A stretch of DNA of 64,000 nt, from positions 47,591-111,590 of the forward strand of contig CAZWMQ010000002.1 in the NCBI GenBank assembly GCA_964635125.1, in the 5' to 3' direction. Under the pieces are notes generated by a model, which saw only the letters and a list, made by a program, of their open reading frames with translations, was not told the DNA's origin and did no database searches. Every line of letters begins with the position of its first letter. The stretch's first letter is position 1. Position numbers and translations under genes: made by a program. Positions 1-63,200 of the stretch are shown here, piece after piece. Origin of the DNA: an uncultured Candidatus Saccharibacteria bacterium (GTDB lineage Bacteria > Patescibacteriota > Minisyncoccia > Phycocordibacterales > UBA5272).

Positions 1-39
1 CCTTACTATTTTGAATATAAAATTATTTTAACTAAAAAA

Positions 40-960
40 TTTAAAAGCCCCATGTAAAAACATGGGGCGTGAAGCTAACAGGCATCGGACTGATTAAAAA
101 TTATCAAGTTACCCCCACCTTGAGAACAAGGAGGGTTAGTTACTCTAAACTGCCTATGCGAAAATACTTGCTTTATTAAGCATAACATATTTATAGAAAA
201 ATCCAATCTTATAAATCTAAAATAAAAAAACCTAATGTAGAAACATTAGGTTTTTCCTTTAAAATTGCCTTGTCTTCTAACAACTAAAATAGAATATACA
301 ATAAATTAAATTAAATAGCAAATAAAAAATAAACCGCTTGTAGAAACAAGCGGTAGACGAATCGAGATAACAACTGCTGCTGATTAAGACATAGTTAGTA
401 TAACATATTATAAACAACTAATATAAAACCCCTCCTTTAGACAAAGGTGTGGTTGTTTTCCAAACTTTAACTTTAACTGAACTTGTGAAATCAAATCTAA
501 ATATAACATAGTATAAACAAAAAATAAACCTCCCCTAGACAAGGGAGGTTTCACAAACCAAAAACTCTTTGATATGAAAAGTAAAACTATATTAATAATA
601 ACAAATCTTTAAAAATTAATCAATAGAAAAACCCTCCTGGAAAGGAGGGTAATCTTTACACATTAAAATTCGTACCTATGAAAAACTAATTTCAGTATAT
701 CACATATCAAAATAAAAAGAAACATAATCCTCTCATAGAAACCAAGGGATTTTAATAAATCTAATATAAATAACTAAATATATTGCAACATAATAAAAAA
801 CCACCTGTGGAAACAGGCGGTATTCGAAATCAATTCACTTAATAAACCCATAATTAATTATAACATGATATATAAAATAAAAAAGCCCTGTGGAAACAGG
901 GCTCGCTTATTAATCCAATATCCTTTGAAAAACCAGTAATAAATCTAGCAAATATTTATA
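40..960 (-). repeat. tandem array of ~9 mini transcription units, period ~75-110 bp; each has an extended -10 box, a 35-50 nt variable segment and a GC hairpin with covarying stem and conserved YUUUCYA-type loop followed by a U-tract
   Basis: Hairpins at ~47-68, 111-137, 229-252, 334-353, 427-454, 527-550, 631-650, 725-752 (weak), 801-820 and 885-902. Stem sequences all differ but stay complementary. 801-820 pairs perfectly only as minus-strand RNA (G.U). Every hairpin is preceded on the + strand by an A-run, which is a U-tract after the hairpin on the - strand. Minus-strand TGTTATA(A/C/T)T-like boxes lie at ~180-191, 291-300, 399-409, 500-511, 596-605, 696-706, 782-791 and 860-869. The same extended -10 is found upstream of rplJ and rpsA. 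Confidence 0.6.
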
Positions 961-977
961 AAATAGTCAAGTAAGGA

Positions 978-2246
978 TTATTTATAAATTTCTTTAATAT
1001 TTTCAAGCATATTTTTTATATTGAAATTATTTTCAATATTTTCTTTTGCCTTTTCTCCCAACTTTCTTCGTAAACTTTTATCTTTAATTAATTTTAATAA
1101 AGCCTCCTTCATCTCATAAATATTTTTATTTTCCACCAATAACCCAGTCTGATTATTTTTAATAATTTCTTTAACTCCACCAGTGTCTGTAACTACAGCT
1201 GGCAAACTTAGAAGCCCAGCTTCAAGTAAGACATACGGCAAACCTTCTTTAATTGATGGTAAAAAATAAATCTGAGCTTCCTTAAGATAATTCTGATGAT
1301 TTTCATCACAAATCAATAAATCTACATAATAATCTAGATCGAGATCTAAGATTAATTTTAATAAATTATTTCTCTCTTCTCCGCCAAATGAGACTATTGT
1401 ATATTTAAAATCCTGAAATTCATCTTTTAATAAGCTGATCGCTCTTAATCCATAATCAAAGCCTTTATTCTTAGTCAATTCTCCAATCGAAACAATTTTG
1501 ACAATTTCATTCTGCCCAGTATCTTGATTTGTATTTCGTATTCCTTCTTGAGCCATCTGACTTGTAGCTTGTAATCTGAAACTTGTTTCTTGAAGCTTAT
1601 AGCTTGAATCTTGTGTCTTAAGTCTTAAAGCTTTTGTCTTGTCTCCGTCTTGCATCTTAAGACTAGTTTCCTGTGACTTGCTACTTGAAGCTTGCAACTT
1701 GTCACTTGCAACTTGAACCCCATTATGTATCATTATTAATTTAGCTTTATTGACTAACCACCAATTCTTAACATCATTATAATCTTTCTCTGAAACACAG
1801 ATAACTTTATCTGATAATAATATCGTAAGCCAAGAAAAAAACTTTATTAAAATAATACTTAGATAATTTCTATCTTCTCGAAATGGCCAACCGTGAGCAG
1901 TAAAGATTATCTTTTTAACTCTAGCTAATCTTCCAACCATCGCTCCAATTATCCCCATTTTTGAACTATTTAAATGAATAATATCTGGCTTAATTTCTTT
2001 TAATAATTTATAAAGTCTAATCAATACTCTTAATTCTTTAAAAATATTTATGTCTCGCGTCAAATTAGATATATGATAAGTCTTAATATTTTCTCCTTTC
2101 AACTTTTGATATAATTCACCATAACCACCACAAGCTACTTCTATCTCAAAGTCACTTTTAACTTTAGCTAGATTTGTCGCTAAATCGTATACATATTTCT
2201 GAGCTCCGCCCCAATTACTTTTAGTGATGAGATATAAGATTTTCAT
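978..2246 (-). CDS. glycosyltransferase family 4 (GT-B) with a ~55-aa low-complexity inter-domain insert encoded by a heptanucleotide (CTTGNNN)n tract
   Basis: N-terminal 'MKILYLITKSNWGGAQKYVYDL' and C-terminal 'KEGLPYVLLEAGLLSLPAVVTDTGGVKEI' GT4 motifs. Insert 'KLQETSFRLQATS...' at nt ~1560-1730. Confidence 0.75.
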   Translation of the reverse strand: MKILYLITKSNWGGAQKYVYDLATNLAKVKSDFEIEVACGGYGELYQKLKGENIKTYHISNLTRDINIFKELRVLIRLYKLLKEIKPDIIHLNSSKMGIIGAMVGRLARVKKIIFTAHGWPFREDRNYLSIILIKFFSWLTILLSDKVICVSEKDYNDVKNWWLVNKAKLIMIHNGVQVASDKLQASSSKSQETSLKMQDGDKTKALRLKTQDSSYKLQETSFRLQATSQMAQEGIRNTNQDTGQNEIVKIVSIGELTKNKGFDYGLRAISLLKDEFQDFKYTIVSFGGEERNNLLKLILDLDLDYYVDLLICDENHQNYLKEAQIYFLPSIKEGLPYVLLEAGLLSLPAVVTDTGGVKEIIKNNQTGLLVENKNIYEMKEALLKLIKDKSLRRKLGEKAKENIENNFNIKNMLENIKEIYK

Positions 2247-2297
2247 ACTTTTATTTTTTAAAATAATCTGTATAATATATTTATTAAATTATAATAC

Positions 2298-3662
2298 ATG
2301 ATTTCAACCAAAATCACAAAAAGAGTATTCGTGGCTATTATTGACTTTCTGATCTTAGCTTTTTCTCTATATATATCCATCTCTTTAAGAGATTTAGAAT
2401 TCAAATCTAAAGCAGAATATCTTAGCATATTTTTACCATTTTTAATCATTATACTCTCAAATATCTTAGTATTTTATATTTATGGTCTTTATGACAAGAT
2501 GACCACTAAGATCTATCGAGAATTAAATCAGAGAATCCTTATTAGCCAAATTATTTCTTCGGTGATTGGAGCGATTATTTTCTATACTTCCTCCTACTTT
2601 ACAATTGCTCCAAAGACAATTTTAATAATATATATAATAATCTCTAGTGTTCTGATCTTTATTTGGAGAAGATACGCTCGACTATTTATTAAATCCCCTA
2701 AAACTATCAACTTACTATTAGTCGCCGAGGGAGCTGAGCTTCTAGAATTAAAAGAAGAGATAATGAATAATAAAATCCTAGCCATCAATAAAGTTGATTT
2801 TATAGATCTACTCGAAAATAAAGAGCTAGACTTATACACGAAGATAAAAGAGAAAGTCAATAAAGAGAAATTTAATATGCTAGCCATTAATATGCATCAC
2901 TCTCATATTAAAAACTCTGTCTCTTTATTTTACGAATTACTTTTAGATAAAGTTAATGTGCTTAATTTTGCCGATCTCTATGAAGAAGTTTTAGGAAAGA
3001 TACCACTTAATAATATAGACGCTAGCTGGTTCTTCAATAATCTAAACCAAAGTAAAAACAATTTCTACTCAAATATAAAAAGATTTATGGATTTATTAAT
3101 TTCTGCCCCCGCTTTATTTATTTCTTTAATCTTTTATCCTTTCGTCTATCTTGGACTTAAGATTCAAGATGGTGGCAATTTATTTTATATCTCGGAAAGA
3201 ATCGGTAAGAATAATAAGCTAATCAAAATATATAAATTTAGAAGTATGAATCAATTAAGAAGTATAGAGGTTGATTATATTAATCCCAAAGAGAAAGATA
3301 GAGTTACAAAATTTGGCAGATTTTTAAGAAAGACTAGGATAGACGAATTACCACAATTAATAAATATAATTAATGGAGATATCTCTTTAATTGGTCCAAG
3401 ACCAGAGGCTCCAACTCTCGTCAAAGAATATTCAAATCAAATACCCTTTTATAGTATTCGCCACACTATAGTTCCAGGATTATCTGGCTATGCCCAGATC
3501 TATCAAGAACAAAAGTTAGTCCCAAAGTTTGGCTTATCCACAAATGCCACCAAAGACAAATTATCTTTTGATATTTATTATTTAAAACACAAATCTCCGA
3601 TAATGGATTTATCTTTAATCTTAAAGACGATTAAGAATTTATTAGGTAAAAGTGGGGTATAA
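2298..3662 (+). CDS. polyprenyl-phosphate hexose-1-phosphate transferase (WbaP/CpsE-like bacterial sugar transferase), priming enzyme
   Basis: N-terminal TM helices plus C-terminal Bac_transf-like region 'IKIYKFRSM...RIDELPQLINIINGDISLIGPRPE'. Confidence 0.8.
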   Translation: MISTKITKRVFVAIIDFLILAFSLYISISLRDLEFKSKAEYLSIFLPFLIIILSNILVFYIYGLYDKMTTKIYRELNQRILISQIISSVIGAIIFYTSSYFTIAPKTILIIYIIISSVLIFIWRRYARLFIKSPKTINLLLVAEGAELLELKEEIMNNKILAINKVDFIDLLENKELDLYTKIKEKVNKEKFNMLAINMHHSHIKNSVSLFYELLLDKVNVLNFADLYEEVLGKIPLNNIDASWFFNNLNQSKNNFYSNIKRFMDLLISAPALFISLIFYPFVYLGLKIQDGGNLFYISERIGKNNKLIKIYKFRSMNQLRSIEVDYINPKEKDRVTKFGRFLRKTRIDELPQLINIINGDISLIGPRPEAPTLVKEYSNQIPFYSIRHTIVPGLSGYAQIYQEQKLVPKFGLSTNATKDKLSFDIYYLKHKSPIMDLSLILKTIKNLLGKSGV

Positions 3663-3681: not shown

Positions 3682-4812
3682 ATGCACGAAAAAAATTTAT
3701 TTCTAATATATCTAGGTAGAACAGGCTCTGGTCCTAGAACAACTCTAGATTTATCAAAAGAAATATTATCAAGAAAAGAAATAAAAAATTTTGATCTATT
3801 AATATCAAAAAATAATTCTTTGATAAATGAAACTCTCTCTATTAAAAAAGATTCTTTTATATTAGATACTCCTATCTCTAATAGAGATTCTATTCTAAAA
3901 TTACCAAAATTTATCTTTAAATTTATAAAAATTTTAAGAGTTGCTAAAAGAAAAAAAGAAAATAATTTTTTCTTTGTTATGACCCATATTTGGAACCCTA
4001 TTTGTATGATATTAATAAAAATTATTATACCAAAATCTAATATTTTTTTTATTGTACATGATGTAGAAATTCATCCTGGAGATAAAAATTCTAAATTGCA
4101 ATATTTCATAATGCAGGTTGAAATATTTTTATCAAATATAATAACAGCCCCTTCTCAGAACACTAGGCAGAAATTATTAACGAAATGGAAAAAGAATATA
4201 TTTATAACTCCTTTGCCGGTATTCGATTTTGGAGAAATCAAAGAAATAAGAAAAATATCAAAAATAACAACATTCCTATTTTTTGGTAGAATTGTAAAAT
4301 ATAAAGGACTAAATTTATTCTTACAAGCTTTAGAAATATTTGATAAAGAGGTGCAAAATAAAAATTATAGAGTAATAATTGCTGGTGAAGGAAAAATCGA
4401 ATATAATGAATTTAAAATTATTGAAAAATTAAATCATGAGGAACAAAAAATAATAATAATTAATAGATATTTAGAAGAAAAAGAAATAGGAGATATCTGG
4501 GATGAATCTGATATTGCGATAATATCCTATATTGAAGCTAGCCAATCTGGTATTGTGGCATTATCTATAAACAAAGCTATGCCGTCAATCATAACACCTA
4601 TAAAAGAATTAATAGATCAATGTGAAGCTAATGATATAAATAATACTTTTGCATTAATAGCAAAAGATCTTAGCCCAAAATCTTTTTCTGAAAAAATGAT
4701 AGAAATATTAGATGAAAAAATCTATGAAAAATTATCTAAAAATGCAATAAATATGCAAAAAGGTACTGGATTTAATGAGTGGGTTAATATAATTATAGAA
4801 AATTCTATATAG
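3682..4812 (+). CDS. glycosyltransferase (GT4-like C-terminal domain)
   Basis: 'FFGRIVKYKGLNLFLQALEIF...YRVIIAGEG' Glycos_transf_1-like. Confidence 0.6.
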   Translation: MHEKNLFLIYLGRTGSGPRTTLDLSKEILSRKEIKNFDLLISKNNSLINETLSIKKDSFILDTPISNRDSILKLPKFIFKFIKILRVAKRKKENNFFFVMTHIWNPICMILIKIIIPKSNIFFIVHDVEIHPGDKNSKLQYFIMQVEIFLSNIITAPSQNTRQKLLTKWKKNIFITPLPVFDFGEIKEIRKISKITTFLFFGRIVKYKGLNLFLQALEIFDKEVQNKNYRVIIAGEGKIEYNEFKIIEKLNHEEQKIIIINRYLEEKEIGDIWDESDIAIISYIEASQSGIVALSINKAMPSIITPIKELIDQCEANDINNTFALIAKDLSPKSFSEKMIEILDEKIYEKLSKNAINMQKGTGFNEWVNIIIENSI

Positions 4813-4814
4813 AT

Positions 4815-5720
4815 TTATATTTTTAAACCTATTTTTTCTCCAGTCTTAATTACGTCTTCTAACAATATAGAATCTACGGCTTCTTTAACAAAACTTGTCT
4901 TATAAAAAGCTTTTTTAAGTTTTTTAGAAATAACTTTTTCTAAAATATTATACCCATATATTTCTTGAGGGCTAGTACAAGTAAATATACTAACTGTGGG
5001 AATATTTAAACCTAACCCTATATGCATAGCTAAAGTGTCTCCACAAAAGAGAAAAGAGACTTTGCTTATATCTTCAATATATTTTTTCATTGTATTTCTA
5101 TCTTTAAAGTAAATGACTTTATATCCTTTATACTTTAAGAAAAACTCCAACTCTTTATACCTTGTCCAGACTTTTGTCGGCCATCGAATACCAGCCCTAT
5201 TTTCAATGCCTATTATTTTTTTATTTATATTCTTCTTTTTTCTTATCTTGGGTAATAGATATTTTTCTCCCTTAAACTTATATCCTAAGATGTTAAAAAG
5301 AATTTCTTGATATGATTTTTTATTTTTCCATTTTAATTTATCGGCTTTTTCTTTTCCAAATCTAGAAGATAAACCCATATCAAACCATTCATTACTATCT
5401 ATTGTATATACAATCTTATCTTTATCTAAAAAAATACCAACCAATTTTTCAGATTTTAATTTAGTAGCTAATTCCGCACATTTATAATCATCATCAAGTG
5501 ATATAACAAGATTAAATTTTACTTTCAAAAAATAATTTAAATCTATATCTTCTATAGAGAATATTTTCAGATTTCTTAACTGCCCTGGCAATATTTCTTT
5601 ATTCTTTTTTGCAGTGATCCAATATATCTCTATTTTCTTATTCTTATATAAATGTAAAATAGGAGTCGTTCTCACAACATCCCCAGTAGCTCCTATTTTT
5701 ATAATGCAAATCCTTTTCAT
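4815..5720 (-). CDS. glycosyltransferase family 9 (heptosyltransferase-like)
   Basis: 'MKRICIIKIGATGDVVRTTPIL' N-terminus and 'FCGDTLAMHIGLGLNIPTVSIF' C-terminal motif typical of GT9. Confidence 0.6.
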   Translation of the reverse strand: MKRICIIKIGATGDVVRTTPILHLYKNKKIEIYWITAKKNKEILPGQLRNLKIFSIEDIDLNYFLKVKFNLVISLDDDYKCAELATKLKSEKLVGIFLDKDKIVYTIDSNEWFDMGLSSRFGKEKADKLKWKNKKSYQEILFNILGYKFKGEKYLLPKIRKKKNINKKIIGIENRAGIRWPTKVWTRYKELEFFLKYKGYKVIYFKDRNTMKKYIEDISKVSFLFCGDTLAMHIGLGLNIPTVSIFTCTSPQEIYGYNILEKVISKKLKKAFYKTSFVKEAVDSILLEDVIKTGEKIGLKI

Positions 5721-19124: not shown

Positions 19125-19380
19125 AAATAATTATTTTTATTTCGCTAAGATTAAAATCTTAGCGACTAATTTCTAATAAACAAAAATCTCTCGTTAAACG
19201 AAAGATTTGAGGTAAACTTTACAAGACTTAAGACCTAAGCTTCAAGACTAAAGATAAATTCTTATGTCTTAAGTCTTACTTCTTTTGACTTGTTACGACC
19301 TCCGTGAGCTTATGTTTTGAGGGCTTTCGCCCACTCACTTCTTTGGTTTACTTATATAGTATAACATATCTCAGCTATTT
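19125..19380 (-). promoter_or_regulatory. rplJ leader with promoter (extended -10 'TATGTTATACT' at ~19368-19377 on the - strand) and structured leader
   Basis: The -10 matches the consensus seen in the 1-960 array. Leader hairpin 'GTGAGTGGGCGAAAGCCCTCAAAACATAAGCTCAC'. Long imperfect palindrome of AAGAC/GTCTT heptamers at 19200-19290. Confidence 0.5.
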
Positions 19381-19878: not shown

Positions 19879-19995
19879 TCTGTTCTCCCGAATAGCTACT
19901 CTTGCTAATTAAAGCTACCATCGCTCTATGAAGTCTTCACGATCCAGTTCGGAATGAGATGGTGTGTTACCCTTCATCCAAATCAGGAGAACAGA
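19879..19995 (-). rRNA. rrf: 5S rRNA
   Basis: Reverse complement aligns with bacterial 5S ('CCGAACTGGATCGTGAAGAC', 'GATGGTAGC...GAGTAGC'). Helix I 'GTTCTCCTGA'/'TCGGGAGAAC'. Confidence 0.8.
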
Positions 19996-21695
19996 AAACT
20001 CAAAAGAGATTGGAGAGAGAAGCGGAGTCGAACCACTACCTTCTCATAAATTATTATTTCGTAGTTACTTTTCAGATGGTAACTCGGATAGAATTAATAA
20101 ACTTATGTGATGTCCTAACCGTTAGACGAGCTCTCTTCAATCTTTTGAGTATAAAATCCTATAATGATGTGAGAAGTTTTACTTCTCAATTCGAAAAACT
20201 AAATAAAAATCAAAATAAATTTCAATCAATAACTAGTCTTCCGAATTGAAAAGTAAAATATATAAAAATAATTAATGATAAACATATTTCCTAATAGGAT
20301 ATGGGTATTAGTAATCCTCAGCTGAATGCATTACTGCACTTACACTTAGACCCTATCAACGTAATCATCTCTTACGACCCTTATAGAATACTTATCTTGA
20401 AGTTGGCTTCGTTCTTAGATGCTTTCAGAACTTATCCATTCCCGACTTGGCTACTGGGCGATCCAGCTAGCGCTAGAGCCCACACACCAGAGGTCAGTTC
20501 ATCTCGGTCCTCTCGTACTAGAGATAAATCTTCTCAATATTCCAAACGCCTGCAGTAGATAGGAGACCAACCTGTCTCACGACGGTTTGAACCCAGCTCG
20601 CGTATCTTTTTAAATGGCGAACAGCCATACCCTTGGGAGCTTCTTCACCCCCAGGATAAGATGAGCCGACATCGAGGTGCCGAACTCCACCGTCGCTATG
20701 GACGCTTAGGTGGAACTAGCCTGTTATCCCCGTGGTAGCTTCTATCCGTTAATCTTCAACTGCATCTAATGCAAATTGTCGGTTCACTATGTTCTACTTT
20801 CGTATCTGCTCGACATGCCCGTCTTACAGTTAAGCCAGTTTATGCCATTACACTATCGGCACGGTTTCCATTCGCGCCTAACTGACCTTAATAAACCCCT
20901 CCGTTACTCTTTAGGAGGGTACCGCCCCAGTAAAACTCCCCACCAGATACTGTCTCTCAACGTTTTTTCCGTTGAGGTTAGTGTTTGCCAAGTTACAGAT
21001 GGCTATTTCACTGTCGACTCCATGACAACCGAAATCGTCACTTCAAAGTCTCACCACTATACTACGCAATAAATTAACAAACACAATACCAAGCTAGAGT
21101 AAAGCTCACGGGGTCTTTTCGTCTAACTGCAGGTAGGCGGCATCTTCACCGCCACTGTATTTTCACCGAGCTACTCCCTGAGACAGTTCCCCAGTCATTA
21201 CACCATTCGTGCACGTCTGAACTTACCAGACAAGGAACTTCGCTCAACTGTTCCTTTAAAAGTTGGACTCTATCTTCATCTTTCTTTTACAAGTTAAGAT
21301 GCGTACCGCTGGTCTCTAGTTAGGTACATTGACGCATAATATATTTCTATAAGTGCGGGTAGCTTTATAAATGGTTAATGAATTTAAAACTATTTCCTAA
21401 AACAATCACGACACTAATCTTATCGTCCCAATCATTTCAGATACAAATAATATTTATATCTGAAACCTTAGGACGATTATAGTTATCGCCGACATTGACG
21501 GGGGCTTATATCAGTCAGCCACATGGCAAATTCAAAGTTAGTCCAAAATAAATTTTAAACGCTTTAAATCCACCATGTGACCACCGATATTTGACCTTCC
21601 CGCATTGGTCAGGTGTCACCCCATATACATACTCTTACGAGTTCGCATGGAGCTGTGTTTTAGATAAACAGTTGCCAGAGAAACTTTCGCTGCGG

Positions 21696-22087
21696 CCCAC
21701 ACTATAAAGCTCTCTTTAAATCTTCAAAATCTAAAGAGAGAAAATAGGGTGCCGGTAAATTGGTACTACTCAATAATGGATCATACTGAACGTTACTCGT
21801 ATGATTAGGCTTTTTTTCTTCCGAACCCCAACTTCAAAGATTTCTTTTACAAGAAATAAATCCATTGTTTGTCGAACAAAAATGCTATTACTTTCAACAT
21901 GACTGTGATTGCATATTGAAAAACATTTCTGACGGAGGTGTTTCGCTTTCCTATCAACACCTCGTAGCGTTTACTAAAACTCTGCAGTTCTAGCTGATCA
22001 TTTAAGACCATTTCTCATTATTAACTAATCTCATACCAATTCCCGAGCAATACTTTCAAGCTCATAAAAAGAGCTTTATAGTGTGGG
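21696..22087 (-). repeat. 392-bp insertion in 23S flanked by perfect 18/19-bp inverted repeats
   Basis: 'CCCACACTATAAAGCTCTC' at 21696-21714 and 'AGAGCTTTATAGTGTGGG' at 22070-22087. Confidence 0.55.
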
Positions 22088-22691
22088 CAAGCCTTATTGC
22101 TAACTTACGGCTGCTTTTTTGCCTAGTTCCTTGGGGAGAAATCACTCGTTCGCCTTGGTCTACTCGACCTGAATACCTGTGTCGGTTTGCGGTACGGACT
22201 TATATAAATTTAAAGTATTGCGGATTTTGTGAATAATGTATCCTAGATGACTAGCTACATTATTCACAAAGCAATATCTACTATTCAGTAGATGTAGAAA
22301 CTTTTCTCGGCACAGTGCTCCTTTATCTTCACCGGTATTGCTACAAGCTTCACTTCATAACTCTCGGTATTCAAGAACTGATTTACATGCTCTTGCCAAT
22401 CATTACAAAGACCACAATCTGATAAGTGGCATAAAATACAACCATGCGTCATTCCATCACATTTATACAAGGTAAAGGAATATTAACCTTTTGTCCATCG
22501 CCTACGGCTCATCGCCATCGGCTTAGGCCCGACTAACTCTTCGCTGACAACCATTGCGAAGAAAACCTTATTCTTTCGGCGTGGGGGGATCTCACCCCCA
22601 TTGCGGTTACTTGTGCCAACATTCGTACTTCTACACGCTCCACGGCGGGTCACCCCTTCCGCTTCATCGCAGAGTAGAACACTCGTCTACC

Positions 22692-22836
22692 GATTGTAAT
22701 TTTCACAAGAAAGAGAAATAACTATTTACTAATTAGGGCGAAGGTCTGACTAATAAATTTATTAAAAAATAAATTTATTAATTCTGCTTCCAAACTATTA
22801 GTCATAATACTTATCTCCCTTGTGAAAATTACAATC
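22692..22836 (-). repeat. 145-bp intervening sequence in 23S flanked by perfect 18-bp inverted repeats (helix-45-type IVS)
   Basis: 'GATTGTAATTTTCACAAG' at 22692-22709 and 'CTTGTGAAAATTACAATC' at 22819-22836. AT-rich interior with a duplicated 12-bp palindrome 'AATAAATTTATT'. Lies ~1.2 kb from the 23S 5' end. Confidence 0.6.
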
Positions 22837-22911
22837 CCTAAACTTCGGTGATATGTTTGAGTCCCGATCATCTGTGGCGCAGAATCTCTCGATGGGTGAG
22901 CTGTTACGCTA

Positions 22912-22946
<35 letters not shown>

Positions 22947-23520
22947 CATTGTCAATGAAATTCCACCTCCTCACTTACACTTAACATATACTTAGGGACC
23001 TTAATTTTAGATCTGGGCTGTTTCCCTTTTGACCACCGGAGCTTCGCCCCCGGAGTCTTACTGCTAGACTATTAAACTTTGGTATTCGGAGTTTGATAGG
23101 TATTGCCGTATTTCTACTAGTCAAGACCTTCCAGTGCTCTACCCCCAAAGCGAACATCTAACGCTATTCCTATAAATATTTCGACGAGAACCAGCTATTA
23201 CCAAGTTCGATTAGCTTTTCACTCCAACCCACAAGTCATCCAAAAGAGTCGCACGACTTACTAGTTCGGGCCTCCACTTATCTTTCGACAAGCTTCGCCC
23301 TGCTCATGGGTAGCTCACCTGGCTTCGGGTCTTTATTATTCAACTATTATTTCGCGCTATTCACACTCGCTTTCGCTTATGACTCCATCACTTTATACGA
23401 CTTAGTCAGCTGAATAATAAAACTCGTTGGCTCATTCTTCAATAGGCACGCAGTCGAGGTGCAAGCACCTCTCCTACTCTTTGTAAACATATGGTTTCAG
23501 TTCTATTTCACTCCCCTCCC

Positions 23521-23564
<44 letters not shown>

Positions 23565-24454
23565 ACTCAAGGAATATTTAGCCTTACCGGTTAGTTCCGG
23601 CAGATTCACCCGAGCTATTCGTGTCTCGAGTTACTCAGGATAAGAGATAAAAAAGAGTTAAATATTTCGAATACGGGACTATCACCCTCTTTGGTGCTAC
23701 TTTCCAATAGCTTATACTATAAATAACTTTTGTAACTTTCCTAGATAATTCTACATCTCTTCCCTACAACCAACTTAGTATTACTACTAAGAATTTGGGC
23801 TTCTCTGTTTTCGCTCGCCGCTACTTGCAGAATAACATTGTTTTCTTTTCCTGTGGGTACTGAAATGTTTTACTTCCCCACGTACGCTTCTAAAGATATG
23901 CTCCCTAGATTCCAAGACTTTACTCTTGGAGAGTTTCCTCATTCAGATATCTTCGGATCGAAGGTTAAAAGGCACCTCCCCGAAGCTTATCGCAGCCTAA
24001 TCACGTCTTTCATCGCTTCCTTGAACCAAGGCATCCACCTTATGCTCTTATTTCCTATTAGGAAATATATTTACCATCTTTATTTTTAACACCGCTGTCA
24101 AAAATAAATATTATTTTTATACAGTGTCTATATTATTCTCATAATATAGACTTACCTTTATTTTCACATCTATATACATTGCCTGAAAAGACCCCAAGAT
24201 ATTTGGGATATCAAATTGTGCAATGCTATAGGATTCTATTGACAAATAACTTGTCTAAATTTTTGAAAATAAAAACCGCTTTTTAAGCGGCGACTAAAAA
24301 CACTTTTTAGAAGCTGCTTAATTTTTCTGTTTTAAATTCAACATATTTAGGTCTTTCAATATTAACATAATGGAAATAAAAATGCAAACCAATCTGATAT
24401 CTAATTGCTAGTATCTAGTTTCTAGTTAAAATAACCTTTCTAGATAACTATAGG

Positions 24455-33659: not shown

Positions 33660-34754
33660 ATGGCAGTAAAAAAGAAAGTAGCAAAAGCTAAGAAAACAAT
33701 CGGAGAGAAAATTGAAGGTAAAAAAGTTAATGCAGATGAGTTATTAAAAGAAATACAACAAAAATTCGGTGAAGGAGCTATTATGAAGCTTGGAGAAACC
33801 CCAAAAGTTGATATTGGAGTAATCGGAACTGGATCAATTGGATTAGATTATGCCTTAGGTGTTGGTGGACTTCCTCGAGGAAGAATTGTTGAAATCTACG
33901 GACCAGAGTCCTCTGGAAAAACTACTTTGACACTTCATGTAATTGCTGAGGCACAGAAAATGGGAGGAACTTGTGCTTTTATTGATGCTGAACATGCTAT
34001 GGATCCAGAATATGCTAAGAAGCTTGGCATCAATATTAATGAATTATTAATTTCTCAACCAGATAATGGTGAGCAAGCTCTCGATATTGCAGAAACTTTA
34101 GTTAGATCTGGAAAAATTGATGTCTTAATTATTGATTCAGTTGCTGCCTTAACTCCACAAGCAGAAATCGAAGGAGATATGTCCCAAGCTCATGTTGGTA
34201 GACAAGCAAGACTCATGTCCCAAGCTTTAAGAAAATTAACTTCTATTGCCCACAAGTCAAAGACAGTAATTATATTTATCAATCAGATAAGAATGCAAAT
34301 TGGAATAATGTTCGGTAATCCTGAAACAACTCCAGGAGGAAAGGCATTAAAGTTTTATGCTTCGGTCCGCTTAGACATTCGTAAGATCGCTCAGATTAAG
34401 AAAGGAGACGAGGTGCTTGGGGCTAGAACTCGAGTAAAAGTAGTTAAAAATAAAGTGGCTGCTCCATTTAAACAAACTGAGTTCGATATTATGTATGGAG
34501 AAGGTATTTCTCATGAAGGAGAGTTACTAGCTCTTGGAGAGAAATTTAAGATAATAAATAAAAGCGGATCTAGTTATACTTTTGGAGAGGAAAAGTTAGG
34601 ACGAGGTTATGATGCTGCTAGAAGCTATCTAAAAGAAAATCCTAAAGTAACTAAAGAAATTGAAAAACAAATCAGAAAAGCACTGGTTAGTGGTGGCTTA
34701 GAATTCACTCCCGAAAAACACGAAACTGAAGAAGACGAAGCTCCGGAAGAATAA
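33660..34754 (+). CDS. recA: recombinase RecA
   Basis: '[13 protein letters not shown]', 'IIDSVAAL' and '[36 protein letters not shown]'. Confidence 0.95.
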
Positions 34755-39151: not shown

Positions 39152-39898
39152 ATGCAAAATCTCAAAAGAGACTTCTTGAAAAGACTCAATTCTCTTAAAG
39201 AAGAGAAGGCTAATACTTATCTTTCTGTAAAAGGTCTTTCTAAAAATGATCTAAAGTTAATCTCTAAAGATGAGGAGAAGTTAATGAATTTGTGGAGGGA
39301 GACTCCTGAGGAATTATGTTCTCCCATAATTAAAAGAATGAGGATCAACAACAAAGAAAAATTAATTAAATATGCCAAAAATGAGAAGAAGTTGATGAAT
39401 TTGTTGAGGAATACTACTGAAGAACTCCGCCCTCCTATAATTAAAACCATTCTTAAATTGATCTCTAAAGATGAGGAAAAGTTGATGAATTTGTGGAGGA
39501 AGACTCCTAACGAACTCCGTCCTCCTATAATTAAGACCGTTCTTAAATTGATCTCTAAAGATGAGGAGAAGTTAATGAATTTGTGGAGGGAGACTCCTAA
39601 CGAACTCTGCCCTCCTATAATTAAAACCATTCTTAAATTGATCTCTAAAGATGAGGAGAAGTTGATGAATTTGTGGAGGAATACCTCTGACGAACTCTGC
39701 CCTCCTATAATTAAGGCCATTCTTAAATTGATCTCTAAAGATGAGGAGAAGTTAATGAATTTGTGGGGGGAGACTCCTAACGAACTCTGCCCTCCTATCA
39801 CTGAGAAGATTGTGGAATTATTAATGAGCTATGATGATAATAAATTCAAAATGGCCGTTGAAAAAATTGATGCGAATATTTTAAAAGCTATTGTCTAA
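39152..39898 (+). CDS. tandem-repeat protein with six ~30-aa repeats 'LKLISKDEEKLMNLWRETPNELCPPIIKTI' (90-bp DNA repeats); unknown function
   Basis: Near-identical 90-bp repeats at 39230-39790. Own promoter-like TTGACA at ~39083 and a terminator at 39913-39944. Confidence 0.6.
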   Translation: MQNLKRDFLKRLNSLKEEKANTYLSVKGLSKNDLKLISKDEEKLMNLWRETPEELCSPIIKRMRINNKEKLIKYAKNEKKLMNLLRNTTEELRPPIIKTILKLISKDEEKLMNLWRKTPNELRPPIIKTVLKLISKDEEKLMNLWRETPNELCPPIIKTILKLISKDEEKLMNLWRNTSDELCPPIIKAILKLISKDEEKLMNLWGETPNELCPPITEKIVELLMSYDDNKFKMAVEKIDANILKAIV

Positions 39899-44999: not shown

Positions 45000-45171
45000 T
45001 TTGCGAAAATGCTTAAAATGTGTTAAAATCATAAAAGCTTAAAATCTATCGAGATTGAGCTATTGATTTGTTTTTTATATAAAAGATCTTTGGTCTATAA
45101 TCTAAAATATTAGAATTATAAAATAAATTTAAACCTCTTGTAGCTTGAAACTTGCTACTTGAGTCTTGAAC

Positions 45172-45243
45172 GGCCTTATCGTCTAATGGTTAGGACAGCA
45201 GGTTTTCATCCTGCAAATCGGAGTTCGATTCTCCGTAAGGTCA
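45172..45243 (+). tRNA. tRNA-Glu (anticodon UUC)
   Basis: Cloverleaf: acceptor GGCCTTA/TAAGGTC, D-arm GTC-TAATGGTTAG-GAC, anticodon stem GCAGG/CCTGC with loop TTTTCAT, T-arm CGGAG-TTCGATT-CTCCG. CCA not encoded. Preceded by five CTTGNNN heptamers. Confidence 0.85.
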
Positions 45244-45252
45244 CCTTATATT

Positions 45253-58323: not shown

Positions 58324-58593
58324 ATTTTTATTTTTAAATTTTTATGAAGTTTTTAAAACGAAATAATTCGCTAATAAATTAATAATAAAGAAAGAACAAC
58401 ACAACACTTAATTTATTAAAGATAAATAAGCATTTACCAACTTATACATAGACAATCTACATATTATTTTAAGTATATAACCATCAAAATCTAATGTCAA
58501 TATAGAAATAGTTTTACTTTTACTAAAAATATGTTAAAATAAATCTAAATTCTTAAGTCTTGGTTCTTGCAACTTGAAACTTGACTCTTGAAT

Positions 58594-58660
58594 GCAGTGG
58601 TAGCTCAGCTCAAGTAAGAGATTCTGCGAGCACCGCCCGTAATGGACGGAAAGTGGAAAT
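58594..58660 (+). pseudogene. partial duplicate of the tRNA-Asp 5' half with a divergent continuation
   Basis: 'GCAGTGGTAGCTCAGCT' is identical to the tRNA-Asp 5' end and is followed by non-tRNA sequence. Preceded by five CTTGNNN heptamers. Confidence 0.5.
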
Positions 58661-58697
58661 CAAAAACTGAATTGATATATTTCTGTAATAAAAATAT

Positions 58698-58771
58698 GCA
58701 GTGGTAGCTCAGCTGGTTAGAGCACCGCCCTGTCACGGCGGGGGTCGTGGGTTCGAGTCCCATTCACTGCG
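58698..58771 (+). tRNA. tRNA-Asp (anticodon GUC)
   Basis: Acceptor GCAGTGG/TCACTGC, D-arm GCTC-AGCTGGTTAG-AGCA, anticodon stem CCGCC/GGCGG with loop CTGTCAC, T-arm GTGGG-TTCGAGT-CCCAT. Confidence 0.85.
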
Positions 58772-58940
58772 CAAAAAATAATGAGAAACTCTAAAAGAGT
58801 TTAGAATATATTTTTGGCTAAGGAGCGAGGCTCGAACTAAATTGTCTGCAAAGCCAGTTTTTAATTTTGAAGAAATGAAAAACTGAGACAATTTATGCAG
58901 GGTCGAGAAATGATGAGTGAAGCGAATATATTTGGTGACC

Positions 58941-58963
58941 GAGTCCCATTCACTGCGCAAAAA
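58941..58963 (+). repeat. 23-bp direct repeat of the tRNA-Asp 3' end (58755-58777), att-like
   Basis: 'GAGTCCCATTCACTGCGCAAAAA' occurs twice, 186 bp apart. Confidence 0.6.
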
Positions 58964-59034
58964 TAAAAAGTTAATAATTAATTTGTATATATAAACTAAT
59001 TATGATATTATAAATCTACTATTTTTATAGTATA

Positions 59035-59105
59035 TAGCGGAATGGAGTAAAGGTAACTCGCAAGGCTCATAACCTTGAAACCCAGGTTCGAATCCTAGTT
59101 CCGCA
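59035..59105 (+). tRNA. tRNA-Met (CAU), initiator-like (A11:U24, unpaired 1.72)
   Basis: D-arm GAGT-AAAGGTA-ACTC, anticodon stem CAAGG/CCTTG with loop CTCATAA, T-loop TTCGAAT. One C.A mismatch in the T-stem. Confidence 0.6.
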
Positions 59106-60201: not shown

Positions 60202-63200
60202 TTATTGAGTAGGAGTTGAGGTAGCTTCTGATGTGGGTGTTGATTCTGGGGTTATTTGTGGTTCAGTTGTTGGAGTTGAGTCAGGTGTTGAAGTTGATTC
60301 TGATGTAGTTTCAGTAGAGTTCGAAAAATTGTCATCTATAGTATTTGAGGTAGTTGAGCTATTGTCTGAATTAGTCTCAGTAGTTGAAGATCCATTACTA
60401 ATATCAGGAGTAGTCGTTCCGTTATCTGTATTTGTTTCTAAAGTGGTTGAGCCATTATTATCTGAGCTTGAAGAAAACTCGCTTCCTCCACTAGTATTGG
60501 TATTGCTATTCGAAGAAGAATTTTGAGTATTTAATAATTCTTGTAATTGATTAGCATTAGTACAAACTTGCTGCCCATTTTCATTAATCAAACAAAGTTT
60601 CTTCGTCTCAATAAGATCAGAATATAATTTTACAAAATATCCTCTGATAGCAGAAATTCTTAATACTACCAGGTTAGTTAGTAATTCATACCCGGATGAT
60701 AATCTATTATGAATTGTTTGTAAAACATCTATATTATTTTCATTGGTTATAAGATCTATGGTGTTAGTAGCATCACTATTAATTGTTAAAAGAGAATCGC
60801 TACCATTTAAAGTATTGAAAGTTGATTTTAAAGAAGCTACAATATATGGAGTGAATCCTCCATAATTGACTCCTTTCAATCCTCCTGGGTCAGTAGAAAC
60901 CAAATCCGAAAATAATTGTTCTACTTCTTGGGCTATAAATCCAGTATGCTTTGAGCTTGAGCTAGACTCTATTTTCCAATTATAACTAACAGGGTTTAAA
61001 ATTAAAAGTTTATCTAAGACCGATAAGGAGCTAGTAGCTATATTATTATTTAAAACAAACTGAACTTCACTGTTATTTAAAATTGCCGAAGTATTAACTA
61101 AATCTATATTCTTCTTTAAATTAATATCGGAAGAACAAGTCAAAGAAGTTGTATTTGGACTAATCGTACAATTCCCACTACTATTAGTAAATCTAGCGAC
61201 TACACCTGAAATACTACTATTACCAACATCTAAAGTGTATTGTGGAGTAGATGTAGCAATACCTATATAATCACTACTCAAATCCCCATAAATAGTATTC
61301 CCAATATTCAATTGATTATTAGAGGTAGAAGCAGTAACATCTACATTATAACCAATTAAGATATTGTCATGACCGGTAGTGATAGAGTCTCCAGCTTGAT
61401 AACCAATAGCTGTGTTATTGTATCCAGTGCTATTATTATATAAAGCACTCAATCCAATACCAGAGTTACTTCCTCCAGTAGTATTATTTCTAAGAGTTCC
61501 TCGACCAACTGCCACATTAGATTGTCCAGAAGTAGTATTTTGAAGAGCATAAGATCCAAGTCCAACATTGTCACTAGAACTTGTGGCGCTATTAATAGCT
61601 TGATAACCGATAGCCACATTATCTAATCCAGTTAAGTTATTCTGTAAAGCATAAGTACCTAAAGCCAGGTTTCCACTTCCACTAGTGTTAGCAGCTAAAG
61701 AGTTAACTCCAAGTCCAACATTATCATTTCCATCAATATTAAATCCTAAAGCATCATTACCTATAGCTATATTATTAGTACCTATAGTATTAAAATCTAG
61801 AGCATATGGTCCGATGGCGACATTATTTTGAGAACTAGTAGAGTGATTAAGAGCTAGGTGACCAATGGCTATGTTGTAGCTTCCAGTAGTCATACTCTGC
61901 ATAGCATCAAATCCTATGGCTGTATTTCTATTACCACTAGTTATATTTTGTAAAGATTCAGATCCTACTCCTGTATTATATTGTCCGGAGGCTGATGAAT
62001 TACCTGAGTTACCAAAGAAATAGCTGTTTAAGGTTGTGGAGGCAAAGACGAGAGAAGTTCCATTTAAAGTAACTTGACTTGTAGTACTAACTATCACTCC
62101 TGTTTCATTTAACCAAGAAGCTGTGGTGCCATTAGTATATAAGAATTTACCAGCATTGCCAGATTGAGATGGAAGACCTCCACCTGAAACTGTCGCCCAA
62201 GCTACCACTCCACTTCCATTAGTTTGTAAGACTTGTCCGTTAGTTCCATCAGTATTAGGTAAAGTGTAGGCTCCGATCTTTAAGGTTCCAGTGAAGCTAC
62301 CGGTTCCGGCAACAGTTAGGGTTTCATTTAGAGTAGAAGTTCCAATCCCAATCTTTCCACCAGAAATAGCTGTGGTGGTTGGATTACCAGAAGTAGTTGA
62401 ATATAATCCTGTTCCAAATAATATTCCACCAATGTTAAGAGAGTTAGTGGTTGCATTAGGTAAAGAAACATTGGTTCCAATAATAATATTGTTATTACCT
62501 ATGTTATTAGAAGTAAAAGACATACCAGCTTGATAACCAATCAGATTAGAGTATTGAGCATTATCTGCTCCATATCCAGCAGATGTCCCAATGAAGTTTG
62601 AATTATCTGCATCAGTTGCACTATATCCAGCATTATAACCAAGGAAGTTAGCATAAGAAGTTCCATTTGCACTATATCCAGCAGAATCACCAATGAAGTT
62701 AGATTCATCTGAACTGCTAGCATTATGTCCAGCATCTGTCCCGATAAAGTTAGAATATGGCGAACTAGTAGCATTCTGCCCAGCACTTGTCCCAATGAAG
62801 TTAGAATCATTCGAATTGCCAGCATTCATACCAGTATTTAAACCAAAGAAGTTAGAGTCTCCGGAATTAGCTGAATAATTACCGGCTTGATGACCGAAGA
62901 AGTTAGAATAACTTGAATCATGAGCATTTTGTCCAGACCAACCAATATAGTTAGAGATAGAGTTATAAGCTTGATAACCAGCATAATAACCAATACCTAC
63001 TGCTCCAGCTGAATTATAAGCACCATATCCAGCACTTAGACCAAAGAAGTTAGTGGCTCAAGAACCATTAGCTCCATAACCAGCATTTTCTCCTAAGAAA
63101 TTAGATTCGTGAGTACCAGTAGCATTTTGTCCAGCTCCATCTCCTAAGAATACTGATTGATAAGCATCTGATCCGTTTCCAGCATTATTACCTAAGAATA

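What the first reader, a model, noticed from the sequence alone, without database searches (positions are those of the whole stretch)
1560..1730. Imperfect heptanucleotide (CTTGNNN)n tract embedded in-frame in a GT4 glycosyltransferase: possible phase-variation or linker-insertion element
About 24 consecutive heptamers of the form (A/T)CTTGNN lie inside the coding sequence, between the two GT-B domains. Because 3 x 7 = 21 nt, they encode a 7-aa periodic low-complexity insert (K/R-LQ-E/A-TS-x). A 7-nt repeat unit is not a multiple of three. Slipped-strand changes of one unit would therefore shift the frame and switch surface-glycan synthesis on or off. That is classic contingency-locus logic. 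The same heptamer family recurs in non-coding contexts elsewhere in the window.
Basis: seen in the sequence. Interest (0 to 1): 0.65.

Follow-up and report, generated by a model that had tools for sequence, protein, structure and literature searches.

The report
Heptamer-repeat linker insert in glycosyltransferase
A decayed 7-base DNA repeat sits in frame inside a sugar-transferase gene of a small-genome (Patescibacteria-type) bacterium, where it encodes a floppy linker of about 57 residues that predates the split from a distant relative; nothing found here shows it acting as an on/off switch.

Summary
Window 1544-1715 holds 24 heptamers (CAAGNNN on the coding strand, CTTG on +) in two registers separated by a 4-nt break. 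They lie in frame in a 422-aa GT4 gene (978-2246, minus), between its two Pfam domains. That is 15 CTTG in 175 nt against 0.65 expected.

The contingency-locus reading is not supported. Units are heterogeneous: the longest perfect period-7 repeat spans 14 nt. Three other sample assemblies are base-identical. No truncated alleles were listed among the top protein-database hits. A relative whose flanking domains are 56-63% identical has the same insert, same break and same flanks, in frame, with 3 and 9 fewer units.

The linker-insert reading holds. Most orthologues (about 364 aa) lack the insert, others carry unrelated GC-rich hairpin inserts at the same site, and AlphaFold gives pLDDT 28-53 there.

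Codon usage (Lys AAG:AAA 6:1 against 251:836 in the window's long ORFs) shows the CAAG core is kept at nucleic-acid level, not by amino-acid selection.

The same family recurs at three non-coding sites. Two of them end 'TCTTGAA' plus 1 nt before a tRNA 5' end.

Best reading: an old heptameric microsatellite, expressed as a disordered linker, still turning over slowly under frame constraint. It is a member of a known kind, with one unexplained feature (conserved core, free spacer).

The parts
978..2246 (-). GT4 (GT-B fold) glycosyltransferase gene, 422 aa, host of the tract. It sits in a polysaccharide-synthesis cluster with Bac_transf 2298-3662 (+), a GT1-family gene 3682-4812 (+) and a GT9-like gene 4815-5720 (-).
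   Evidence: ORF. Pfam Glyco_transf_4 at residues 12-179 and Glycos_transf_1 at 250-402. Neighbour Pfam labels. AlphaFold pTM 0.80 with both domains at pLDDT about 90.
1646..1715 (-). Heptamer block 1: 10 units of CAAGNNN on the coding strand, starting right after the codons for HNG-V. The relative L004 has 7 units here.
1642..1645 (-). 4-nt register break (GAGA on the coding strand; AAGA in L004). It shifts the heptamer phase but not the reading frame, and both lineages share it.
1544..1641 (-). Heptamer block 2: 14 units, more degenerate than block 1. L004 has 5 units here, and the first four and the last unit are recognisably orthologous.
   Evidence: TRF periods 7, 14 and 28.
45136..45170 (+). 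Non-coding family member: 5 units (NCTTGNN) ending TCTTGAA, then 1 nt, then tRNA-Glu (45172-45245). A promoter-like site lies upstream at 45074-45101.
   Evidence: Identical in a second assembly. Absent upstream of the same tRNA-Glu core sequence in six metagenome contigs; the contig with the identical tRNA is L129.
58551..58592 (+). Non-coding family member: 6 units ending TCTTGAA, then 1 nt, then a 17-nt copy of the 5' end of tRNA-Asp (58594-58610). The intact tRNA-Asp is at 58698-58772. A promoter-like site lies upstream at 58513-58540.
19222..19295 (.). Degenerate inverted pair of heptamer tracts (CAAG/TAAG units, then CTTA/CTTG units) that can fold as an imperfect hairpin. It is intergenic, on the 3' side of the 5S rRNA gene.
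   Evidence: Fold of -20 to -22 kcal/mol, z about -3.2 to -3.6.

Best explanation
The tract is an old heptanucleotide microsatellite (unit CAAGNNN / CTTGNNN) belonging to a repeat family that is scattered through this genome. It became established in the permissive loop that joins the two Rossmann-like halves of a GT4 glycosyltransferase.

Shown:
- It is translated in frame as a Q/S/K/T-rich insert of about 57 residues that is predicted to be unstructured.
- It was already present, with its 4-nt register break, in the common ancestor of this organism and a relative about 55-63% identical in the flanking domains.
- Since that split the two blocks have changed by 3 and 9 units (21 and 63 nt).
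- The CAAG core is held against the local codon preference.

Inferred:
- Length changes arise by replication slippage or unequal recombination between units, which share a 4-5-nt core.
- Selection on the enzyme removes every change that is not a multiple of three units. The array therefore persists as a length-variable flexible linker, not as a switch.
- Continued unit turnover, rather than amino-acid selection, keeps the 7-nt periodicity visible.
- The insert is probably neutral or mildly tolerated for catalysis.
For: Reality and position:
- establish the tract and where it sits.

Lineage-specific insert in a permissive site:
- Orthologues are mostly 363-367 aa without it.
- Other orthologues carry unrelated GC-rich, hairpin-forming inserts at the same position: L132 and L133, GC 0.44-0.48 against a gene GC of 0.27-0.30.

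Disorder:
- pLDDT is 28-53 over residues about 181-247, while both domains are about 90.

Age and common descent:
- L004 has the same start (CATAATGGGGT|CAAG), the same 4-nt break, shared units around the break, and the same tail (QEGIRNTNQ... against QEEIQSTNL...).
- Domain identities are 63% and 56%, and the neighbouring Bac_transf is 68% identical.

Frame-preserving length change:
- Block 1 has 10 against 7 units and block 2 has 14 against 5.

Turnover still active on evolutionary time:
- L004 has adjacent identical units (CAAGTAG x2, CAAGATT x2).

Nucleic-acid-level maintenance of the core:
- Lys AAG:AAA is 6:1 in the insert against 251:836 in the window's long ORFs (p=9e-4).
- Ser AGY:TCN is 7:3 against 295:825 (p=0.005).
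- The core mismatches in 11 of 96 positions; the spacers differ from their commonest base in 42 of 72.

Family context:
- Three more sites lie in this window.
- (CTTGNNN)5 arrays are common in many phyla and mostly intergenic.
- The literature reports that heptameric SSRs are over-represented in bacteria, possibly because of polymerase slippage (PMC4692102; PMC4679880).
Against: - Pure slippage followed by neutral decay should erode all seven positions equally. Instead the 4-nt core is about five times better kept than the spacer, both in the gene and in the two non-coding tRNA-adjacent tracts. That hints at a constraint or mechanism this explanation does not name.
- With only 4-5 nt of shared core, and no perfect repeat longer than 14 nt (period 7) or 25 nt (period 14), slippage should be slow. 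Persistence of the periodicity across a deep split is therefore not fully explained.
- Only two lineages carry the tract. Given that the frame must be kept overall, both blocks being multiples of three units has roughly a 1 in 3 chance.
- L004's copy carries an in-frame TGA at Trp12. If that is a nonsense mutation rather than a recoded codon, that copy may no longer be under selection.
- No experiment or read-level data were available.
Confidence: 0.6

Rival explanations
1. Contingency locus: gain or loss of one heptamer by slipped-strand mispairing shifts the frame and reversibly switches the glycosyltransferase, and so a surface glycan, off and on.
For: - The unit length is not a multiple of 3 and the tract lies inside an ORF of a polysaccharide cluster.
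- Both alternative frames contain stops in or just after the tract, 7 in one and 1 in the other, so a shift gives a protein without its C-terminal domain.
- Unit number has changed in evolution.
- Intragenic heptanucleotide SSRs with frameshifted alleles are known in Haemophilus influenzae: hmw1A (AATTTTG)14 and the HI1369 homologue (AACAACC)8-13 (PMC2651432).
Against: - Units are heterogeneous. About 20 different unit sequences occur among the 24 units, and no run of identical units exists. The longest perfect period-7 repeat is 14 nt; period-7 identity is 57% by my count and 61-72% by TRF.
- The sequence is identical in three other sample assemblies, with contigs running straight through the tract.
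- The 90% cluster of the protein has one member, and no near-100%-identical half-length ORF appears among the top 120 hits.
- A distant orthologue keeps the insert in frame.
Confidence: 0.1
2. The CTTG-N3 array is a functional nucleic-acid element, such as a binding array for an oligomeric DNA- or RNA-binding protein, or an internal or antisense promoter. The gene merely tolerates it. The same element in pre-tRNA leaders would then act on tRNA transcription or processing.
For: - The conserved 4-nt core with a free 3-nt spacer is seen in coding and non-coding copies alike.
- The core is kept against codon bias.
- Two copies share a precise geometry: they end TCTTGAA plus 1 nt before a tRNA 5' end, downstream of promoter-like sites.
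- The units resemble -35 hexamers (TTGACT, TTGCAA, TTGTCA), and promoter-like matches lie on the + strand at 1699-1733.
- From my own knowledge, TRAP and HutP read short cores with fixed spacers, and HutP's UAG-N4 motif has a 7-nt period.
Against: - The tRNA-Glu tract is absent upstream of the same tRNA-Glu in six other contigs, including one (L129) with the identical tRNA, so it is not needed for that tRNA.
- None of 131 tracts in 120 loci from other genomes lies within 300 nt of a tRNA.
- In the gene the tract is antisense relative to its orientation at the tRNAs, so one RNA-level function cannot cover both.
- Promoter matches in a 30% GC genome are weak evidence: 23 were found against 14.5 expected over window 1-2400.
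- Leader-to-GT4 similarity is no better than a family-level null: the longest shared stretch is 13 nt, P about 0.2.
Confidence: 0.15
3. The insert is a selected protein module: a 7-residue-repeat spacer or hinge that tunes domain closure, oligomerisation or membrane association of the enzyme. The DNA periodicity would be a by-product.
For: - The insert has been kept in frame across a deep split and has even grown, 57 against about 29 residues of heptamer-encoded sequence.
- AlphaFold draws a helix at 217-238, although at low confidence.
- The composition is uniformly hydrophilic.
- Tandem repeats that create disordered regions under selection are described for Borg elements (PMC9879509, abstract).
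Against: - Period-7 DNA identity (0.57) is at least as high as period-21 identity (0.52). The repeat is therefore a 7-nt repeat, not a 21-nt (7-aa) one.
- Codon choice follows the DNA core against the local preference.
- The same DNA unit occurs outside genes.
- Almost all orthologues function without any insert.
- The region has low pLDDT.
Confidence: 0.12
4. Assembly or sequencing artefact: a collapsed or chimeric low-complexity stretch.
For: Low-complexity repeats are known to cause assembly errors.
Against: - Three independent sample assemblies are identical to the window over 3.0-5.2 kb with 0 mismatches.
- The reading frame is intact and both flanking domains are well predicted.
- A homologous tract exists in an unrelated sample, SRR27197500.
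Confidence: 0.01

Closest known systems
Heptameric long simple sequence repeats of bacteria (Mrazek et al. 2007, as cited in PMC4692102 and PMC4679880). Examples: GGGAATC in Xanthomonas, GGGGA(T/C)T in Nostoc, the three tandem heptanucleotides of Calothrix PCC7601, and TAACTGA in Beggiatoaceae.
   Same: - Tandem 7-nt units occur at several sites of one genome sharing one motif, and are mostly intergenic.
- Length and sequence vary between related organisms.
- My genome scan found (CTTGNNN)5 or longer arrays in many phyla.
   Different: - Here the largest copy is inside a gene and read in frame.
- Units share only a 4-nt core with a free spacer.
- Two copies abut tRNA 5' ends.
- No function is established for the published families either.
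Heptanucleotide SSR contingency loci of Haemophilus influenzae: hmw1A/hmw2A promoter (TGAAAGA)13-38, intragenic hmw1A (AATTTTG)14, and HI1369 homologue (AACAACC)8-13 (PMC2651432).
   Same: - 7-nt units occur in or next to genes for surface structures.
- A one-unit change inside an ORF shifts the frame.
   Different: - The H. influenzae tracts consist of many identical units, differ in copy number between strains, and show frameshifted alleles.
- The tract here has no two-digit run of identical units, no copy-number difference among the assemblies available, and no frameshifted allele.
Tandem repeats that create intrinsically disordered regions in proteins, for example in Borg elements (PMC9879509).
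   Same: - Repeat-derived, compositionally biased and predicted-disordered sequence is added to an otherwise conserved protein and is absent from homologues.
   Different: - Only the abstract was read; it describes the Borg repeats as recently formed and rapidly evolving.
- The tract here has a non-triplet unit, is old, and is decayed.
RNA elements made of a short conserved core plus fixed-length free spacers, read by ring-shaped proteins: TRAP with (G/U)AG-N2-3 x11, and HutP with UAG-N4 x3. This is from my own knowledge and was not tested here.
   Same: - A conserved 4-nt core, a free 3-nt spacer and 5-6 copies lie in what are probably pre-tRNA leaders.
- HutP's motif also has a 7-nt period.
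   Different: - No such protein was identified here.
- The gene copy is in the opposite orientation.
- The tRNA tracts are not conserved in relatives.
- This is a resemblance only.
tRNA-linked short tandem repeats of Entamoeba. This is from my own knowledge and is a lead only.
   Same: Short tandem repeats lie directly next to tRNA genes.
   Different: - It is a eukaryotic system in which the repeats fill spacers of tRNA gene arrays.
- There is no shared sequence, and nothing was tested here.

Membership tests
Phase-variable contingency locus (intragenic SSR) | Tract of many identical, uninterrupted repeat units that supports high slippage rates | tested here: not met
   About 20 distinct unit sequences occur among the 24 units. 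The longest perfect period-7 repeat spans 14 nt and the longest period-14 repeat spans 25 nt. Period-7 identity is 57% by my count and 61-72% by TRF.
Phase-variable contingency locus (intragenic SSR) | Unit length is not a multiple of three, the tract lies inside the ORF, and a unit change truncates the product | tested here: met
   The unit is 7 nt. The tract lies between codons 177 and 241. The two alternative frames carry 7 stops and 1 stop.
Phase-variable contingency locus (intragenic SSR) | Copy-number polymorphism among strains, samples or reads, including out-of-frame (OFF) alleles | tested here: inconclusive
   Three other sample assemblies are identical. The 90% cluster is a singleton and no near-100%-identical half-length ORF is among the top 120 hits. 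However, these samples are clonal (0 SNPs in about 13 kb, plus about 5 kb at the tRNA-Glu locus).
Phase-variable contingency locus (intragenic SSR) | Orthologues differ by arbitrary unit numbers (ON and OFF states fixed in different lineages) | tested here: not met
   The only other carrier (L004) differs by 3 and 9 units, both frame-preserving.
Heptameric simple sequence repeat family (bacterial LSSR) | Head-to-tail units of 7 nt, far above chance | tested here: met
Heptameric simple sequence repeat family (bacterial LSSR) | The same motif occurs at several loci of the genome, mainly intergenic | tested here: met
   Four loci lie in 64 kb, three of them non-coding. In other genomes about 85% of 131 tracts are not inside long open frames.
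Heptameric simple sequence repeat family (bacterial LSSR) | Length differs between related genomes at the same locus | tested here: met
   24 against 12 units in window and L004. The tRNA-Glu tract is absent in other contigs carrying the same tRNA core sequence, including one with the identical tRNA.
GT4 / GT-B glycosyltransferase (host gene) | N-terminal Glyco_transf_4 plus C-terminal Glycos_transf_1 domains, each a Rossmann-like fold | tested here: met
   Pfam E-values of 5e-24 and 1e-31. The AlphaFold model has pTM 0.80 and alternating strand-helix domains. The catalytic residues were not examined individually.
Repeat-derived intrinsically disordered insert | Absent from homologues, compositionally biased, no confident structure | tested here: met
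   Alignment A1. Q, S, K, T and L make up 39 of the 65 residues counted. pLDDT is 28-53.
Protein-binding core-plus-spacer array (TRAP/HutP-like) | A cognate oligomeric binding protein, and a regulatory outcome on the flanking transcript | not testable with these tools
   Only the sequence pattern is seen: conserved core, free spacer, 5-6 copies before two tRNAs.

The most novel reading that the evidence does not exclude
CTTG-N3 heptamer arrays may be a sequence-specific cis-element rather than passive microsatellites. A 4-nt core would be read at a fixed 7-nt pitch by an oligomeric nucleic-acid-binding protein. The element would be used in the 5' leaders of some tRNA precursors of this Patescibacteria lineage. 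It would be kept for the same reason inside the glycosyltransferase gene, which would explain why the core resists both codon bias and long divergence while the spacer drifts freely.
Probability: 0.12. Interest if true: 0.65.

Novelty: new member of a known kind. Interest (0 to 1): 0.3.

Why it matters
Taken at face value, the finding would have been a first contingency locus in an uncultivated, host-dependent Patescibacteria lineage. The evidence does not carry that claim.

What remains is still a clean natural example of a non-triplet microsatellite surviving inside a gene:
- It sits in a loop that tolerates anything.
- It is read as a disordered linker.
- It changes length only in frame-preserving steps.

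The unexplained residue is the point worth following. A 4-nt core is kept about five times better than its 3-nt spacer, in coding and non-coding copies alike, and two copies abut tRNA 5' ends in register. That bears on the old open question of why heptamers are the favoured long SSR in bacteria.

Tried and rejected
1. Conservation of tRNA-adjacent tracts. I scanned metagenome contigs for the tRNA-Glu core sequence. Six loci were found, including one with an identical tRNA, and none has a heptamer tract upstream. The tract is therefore not a conserved part of tRNA-Glu expression.
2. General tRNA association. ARAGORN on 120 loci from other genomes found no tract within 300 nt of a tRNA. Rfam found nothing near the tracts of two other Patescibacteria loci.
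3. Antisense pairing between tRNA leaders and the GT4 mRNA. The longest shared stretch is 13 nt, no better than a family-level null (P about 0.2).
4. Group I intron as the explanation for the broken tRNA-Asp copy next to the second tract. There is no Rfam intron hit, and the published Patescibacteria introns sit at anticodon-loop position 35/36 (PMC13011429), which does not fit.
5. Length variation in the non-coding tRNA-Glu tract between samples. It is identical in SRR11845619. The protein next to the tRNA-Asp tract is not on record.
6. A CAAG run at 34207-34231. It lies in recA and is coincidental.
7. Strand and replication bias. All three CTTG tracts are on the + strand, but GC skew across the window is not monotonic and n is too small.
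8. Literature on heptamers next to tRNA genes. Nothing relevant was found.
Full report
**What is there**

The window is AT-rich (30.6% GC). It comes from a Patescibacteria-type organism. Two observations support this. Its 23S rRNA gene matches the whole bacterial model but is about 850 nt longer. The named homologues of the host protein are from Paceibacterota/Pacebacteria/Patescibacteria MAGs.

The finding lies inside a 422-aa ORF on the minus strand, 978-2246. Pfam places Glyco_transf_4 at residues 12-179 and Glycos_transf_1 at 250-402. The neighbours are a Bac_transf phosphoglycosyl transferase and two further glycosyltransferases. This is a polysaccharide-synthesis cluster.

**The tract**

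On the + strand, CTTG recurs every 7 nt. Read on the coding strand, directly after the codons for the conserved HNG-V, the structure is as follows.
- Ten CAAGNNN units (+ strand 1715 to 1646).
- A 4-nt break, GAGA (1645-1642).
- Fourteen more units (1641-1544).

That is 15 CTTG in 175 nt against 0.65 expected. First-order Markov random windows gave no comparable run.

The core is C18/A23/A21/G23 out of 24. The three spacer positions have no majority base.

**Is it an insert?**

Yes.
- Of the 120 best homologues, almost all are 363-367 aa. In alignment A1 they have about 20 residues where this protein has about 85.
- AlphaFold2 on that alignment gives two confident Rossmann-like halves (pLDDT about 90, pTM 0.80). 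The region 181-247 scores pLDDT 28-53.
- The same linker is a permissive site in other lineages. Two orthologues (L132, L133) carry an unrelated GC-rich, strongly self-complementary insert there. It encodes ...NPLL(R/W)RGQGEV, with GC 0.44-0.48 in genes of 0.27-0.30.
- A third orthologue (L125) has another GC-richer insert at the same site.

**Is it a switch?**

The logic is sound. Only the real frame is open through the tract, and the other two carry 7 stops and 1 stop. The properties that make a repeat a contingency locus are, however, missing.
- The units are nearly all different. The longest perfect period-7 repeat spans 14 nt and the longest period-14 repeat spans 25 nt. Overall period-7 identity is 57%.
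- Three further assemblies from separate runs (SRR11845633, SRR11845634, SRR11845619) are identical to the window over 5.2, 4.9 and 3.0 kb. Their contigs run through the tract.
- The protein is a singleton at 90% clustering. No near-100%-identical half-length ORF, which an OFF allele would produce, appears in the hit list.
- The caveat is that the samples are clonal and consensus contigs hide minority alleles.

**The relative**

A contig from an unrelated sample (L004, SRR27197500) encodes an orthologue. Its N and C domains are 63% and 56% identical, and its neighbouring Bac_transf is 68% identical. It carries the same insert.
- It has the same start (CATAATGGGGT|CAAG).
- It has seven units, then a 4-nt break (AAGA).
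- It then has CAAGATA AAATCTT CAAGACT TAAGATC CAAGAAG. These match the window's first four units and last unit of block 2.
- It has the same tail.

The tract and its break therefore predate the split.

The two blocks differ by 3 and 9 units, that is 21 and 63 nt. The frame is kept block by block. Given that the total must keep the frame, this has roughly a 1 in 3 chance, so it is suggestive only.

L004 also shows adjacent identical units (CAAGTAG x2, CAAGATT x2). Unit duplication has therefore continued.

**Protein or nucleic acid?**

The periodicity is a DNA (or RNA) property.
- Period-7 identity (0.57) is not lower than period-21 identity (0.52).
- The CAAG core falls in all three codon phases.
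- Codon use inside the insert goes against the local preference. Lys AAG:AAA is 6:1 against 251:836 (p=9e-4). Ser AGY:TCN is 7:3 against 295:825 (p=0.005).

At this divergence synonymous sites should be saturated. The core is therefore kept either by continued unit turnover or by some constraint on CTTG/CAAG itself.

**The family elsewhere in the window**

Two more tracts exist on the + strand.
- 45136-45170: TCTTGTA GCTTGAA ACTTGCT ACTTGAG TCTTGAA, then C, then tRNA-Glu at 45172.
- 58551-58592: TCTTAAG TCTTGGT TCTTGCA ACTTGAA ACTTGAC TCTTGAA, then T, then a 17-nt copy of the tRNA-Asp 5' end at 58594.
- The intact tRNA-Asp is at 58698, and a copy of its 3' end is at 58941.

Both tracts lie downstream of promoter-like sites: TTTATA-16-TATAAT ending at 45101, and TTTACT-16-TAAAAT ending at 58540. 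They would therefore be transcribed as pre-tRNA leaders. That step is inference.

A fourth, degenerate copy is an inverted pair at 19222-19295 that folds as an imperfect hairpin.

The tRNA association does not generalise.
- Six metagenome contigs with the same tRNA-Glu core lack any tract, including L129, whose tRNA is identical.
- No tract in 120 loci from other genomes is near a tRNA.

**Wider context**

Arrays were found in Acidobacteriota, Bacteroidota, Verrucomicrobiota, Planctomycetota, Proteobacteria, Cyanobacteria and others.
- Most arrays are uniform SSRs, and some have variable spacers like the one here.
- About 15% lie in long open frames, usually read as CAAG.

The literature records that heptamers are the over-represented class of long SSRs in bacteria. 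It offers a polymerase-slippage explanation and little functional insight (PMC4692102; PMC4679880). True heptanucleotide contingency loci, as in H. influenzae, are long runs of identical units that vary between strains (PMC2651432).

**Verdict**

It is best explained as an old heptameric microsatellite that lodged in a permissive inter-domain loop. It is expressed as a disordered linker and evolves by unit gain and loss filtered for frame (confidence about 0.6). Phase variation is possible only as a rare by-product (about 0.1).

The better-kept core with a free spacer, shared by coding and non-coding copies, is not explained by simple slippage. So a cis-element reading stays open (about 0.15).

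In kind, the tract is a new member of known heptameric SSRs and repeat-derived disordered inserts. Interest is modest.

Noticed in passing
window 1-960 (minus strand): There are 7-8 terminator-like hairpins (9-15 bp stems of differing sequence, 4-nt loops, then a T-run) spaced about 100 nt apart downstream of the GT4 stop. Only 0.7 would be expected by chance. Each lies next to a TATAACAT-like motif, and no convincing small ORFs lie between them. Two of the three Logan contigs end a little beyond this region, about 115 nt past the window start.
   Followed up: partly
L004 9926-11104 and 8452-9825 (relative from SRR27197500): In-frame TGA falls exactly at conserved Trp positions in two adjacent genes: GT4 W12 (SNW to SN*) and Bac_transf (ASWFF to AG*FF). 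None of 11 genes in the locus uses TGA as an unambiguous stop; the one TGA stop is followed directly by TAA. TGG still dominates at 39:2. This could be UGA=Trp recoding in this Patescibacteria relative, or two nonsense mutations. The window organism itself uses TGA as a stop in 15 of 47 ORFs.
   Followed up: partly
window 58594-58960: The tRNA-Asp locus is nested or duplicated. A 17-nt copy of the tRNA 5' end lies at 58594, the intact tRNA lies at 58698-58772, and a 19-nt copy of its 3' end lies at 58941. No group I intron was detected. It looks like a remnant of integration or partial duplication.
   Followed up: partly
window 24400-24434 (minus strand): A different heptamer array (AACTAGA AACTAGA TACTAGC AATTAGA TATCAGA, that is UAG-N4 repeated) lies just after the stop of a probable peptidase gene. 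It lies directly before a promoter-like TTGCAT...TTAATAT, about 340 nt upstream of the 23S rRNA.
   Followed up: no
L132 and L133 (orthologues P0038, P0022), inter-domain linker: A GC-rich nested inverted repeat (GACCTCC...AACCCTCTCCTT(A/T)GGAGAGG..GGTGAGGTC) is inserted in frame at the same linker position. It resembles the hairpins of window 1-960, for example 631-650 ACCCTCCTGGAAAGGAGGGT. Hairpin elements seem to invade coding loops in this group.
   Followed up: partly
window 20289-24061 (minus strand): The 23S rRNA gene spans 3773 nt against a 2925-nt model, which implies about 850 nt of insertions or introns. The 5S gene is at 19883-19990.
   Followed up: no
window 39377-39798: A 90-nt tandem repeat with 4.7 copies at 90% identity; its context was not examined.
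   Followed up: no
window 62572-62845: 51/102-nt imperfect tandem repeats lie inside a very long minus-strand ORF rich in Ser, Thr and Gly, probably a surface protein.
   Followed up: no
window 59026-59036: A -10-like TATAGT ends only 5 nt before the first base of tRNA-Met at 59036, so this tRNA may be transcribed with almost no leader.
   Followed up: no
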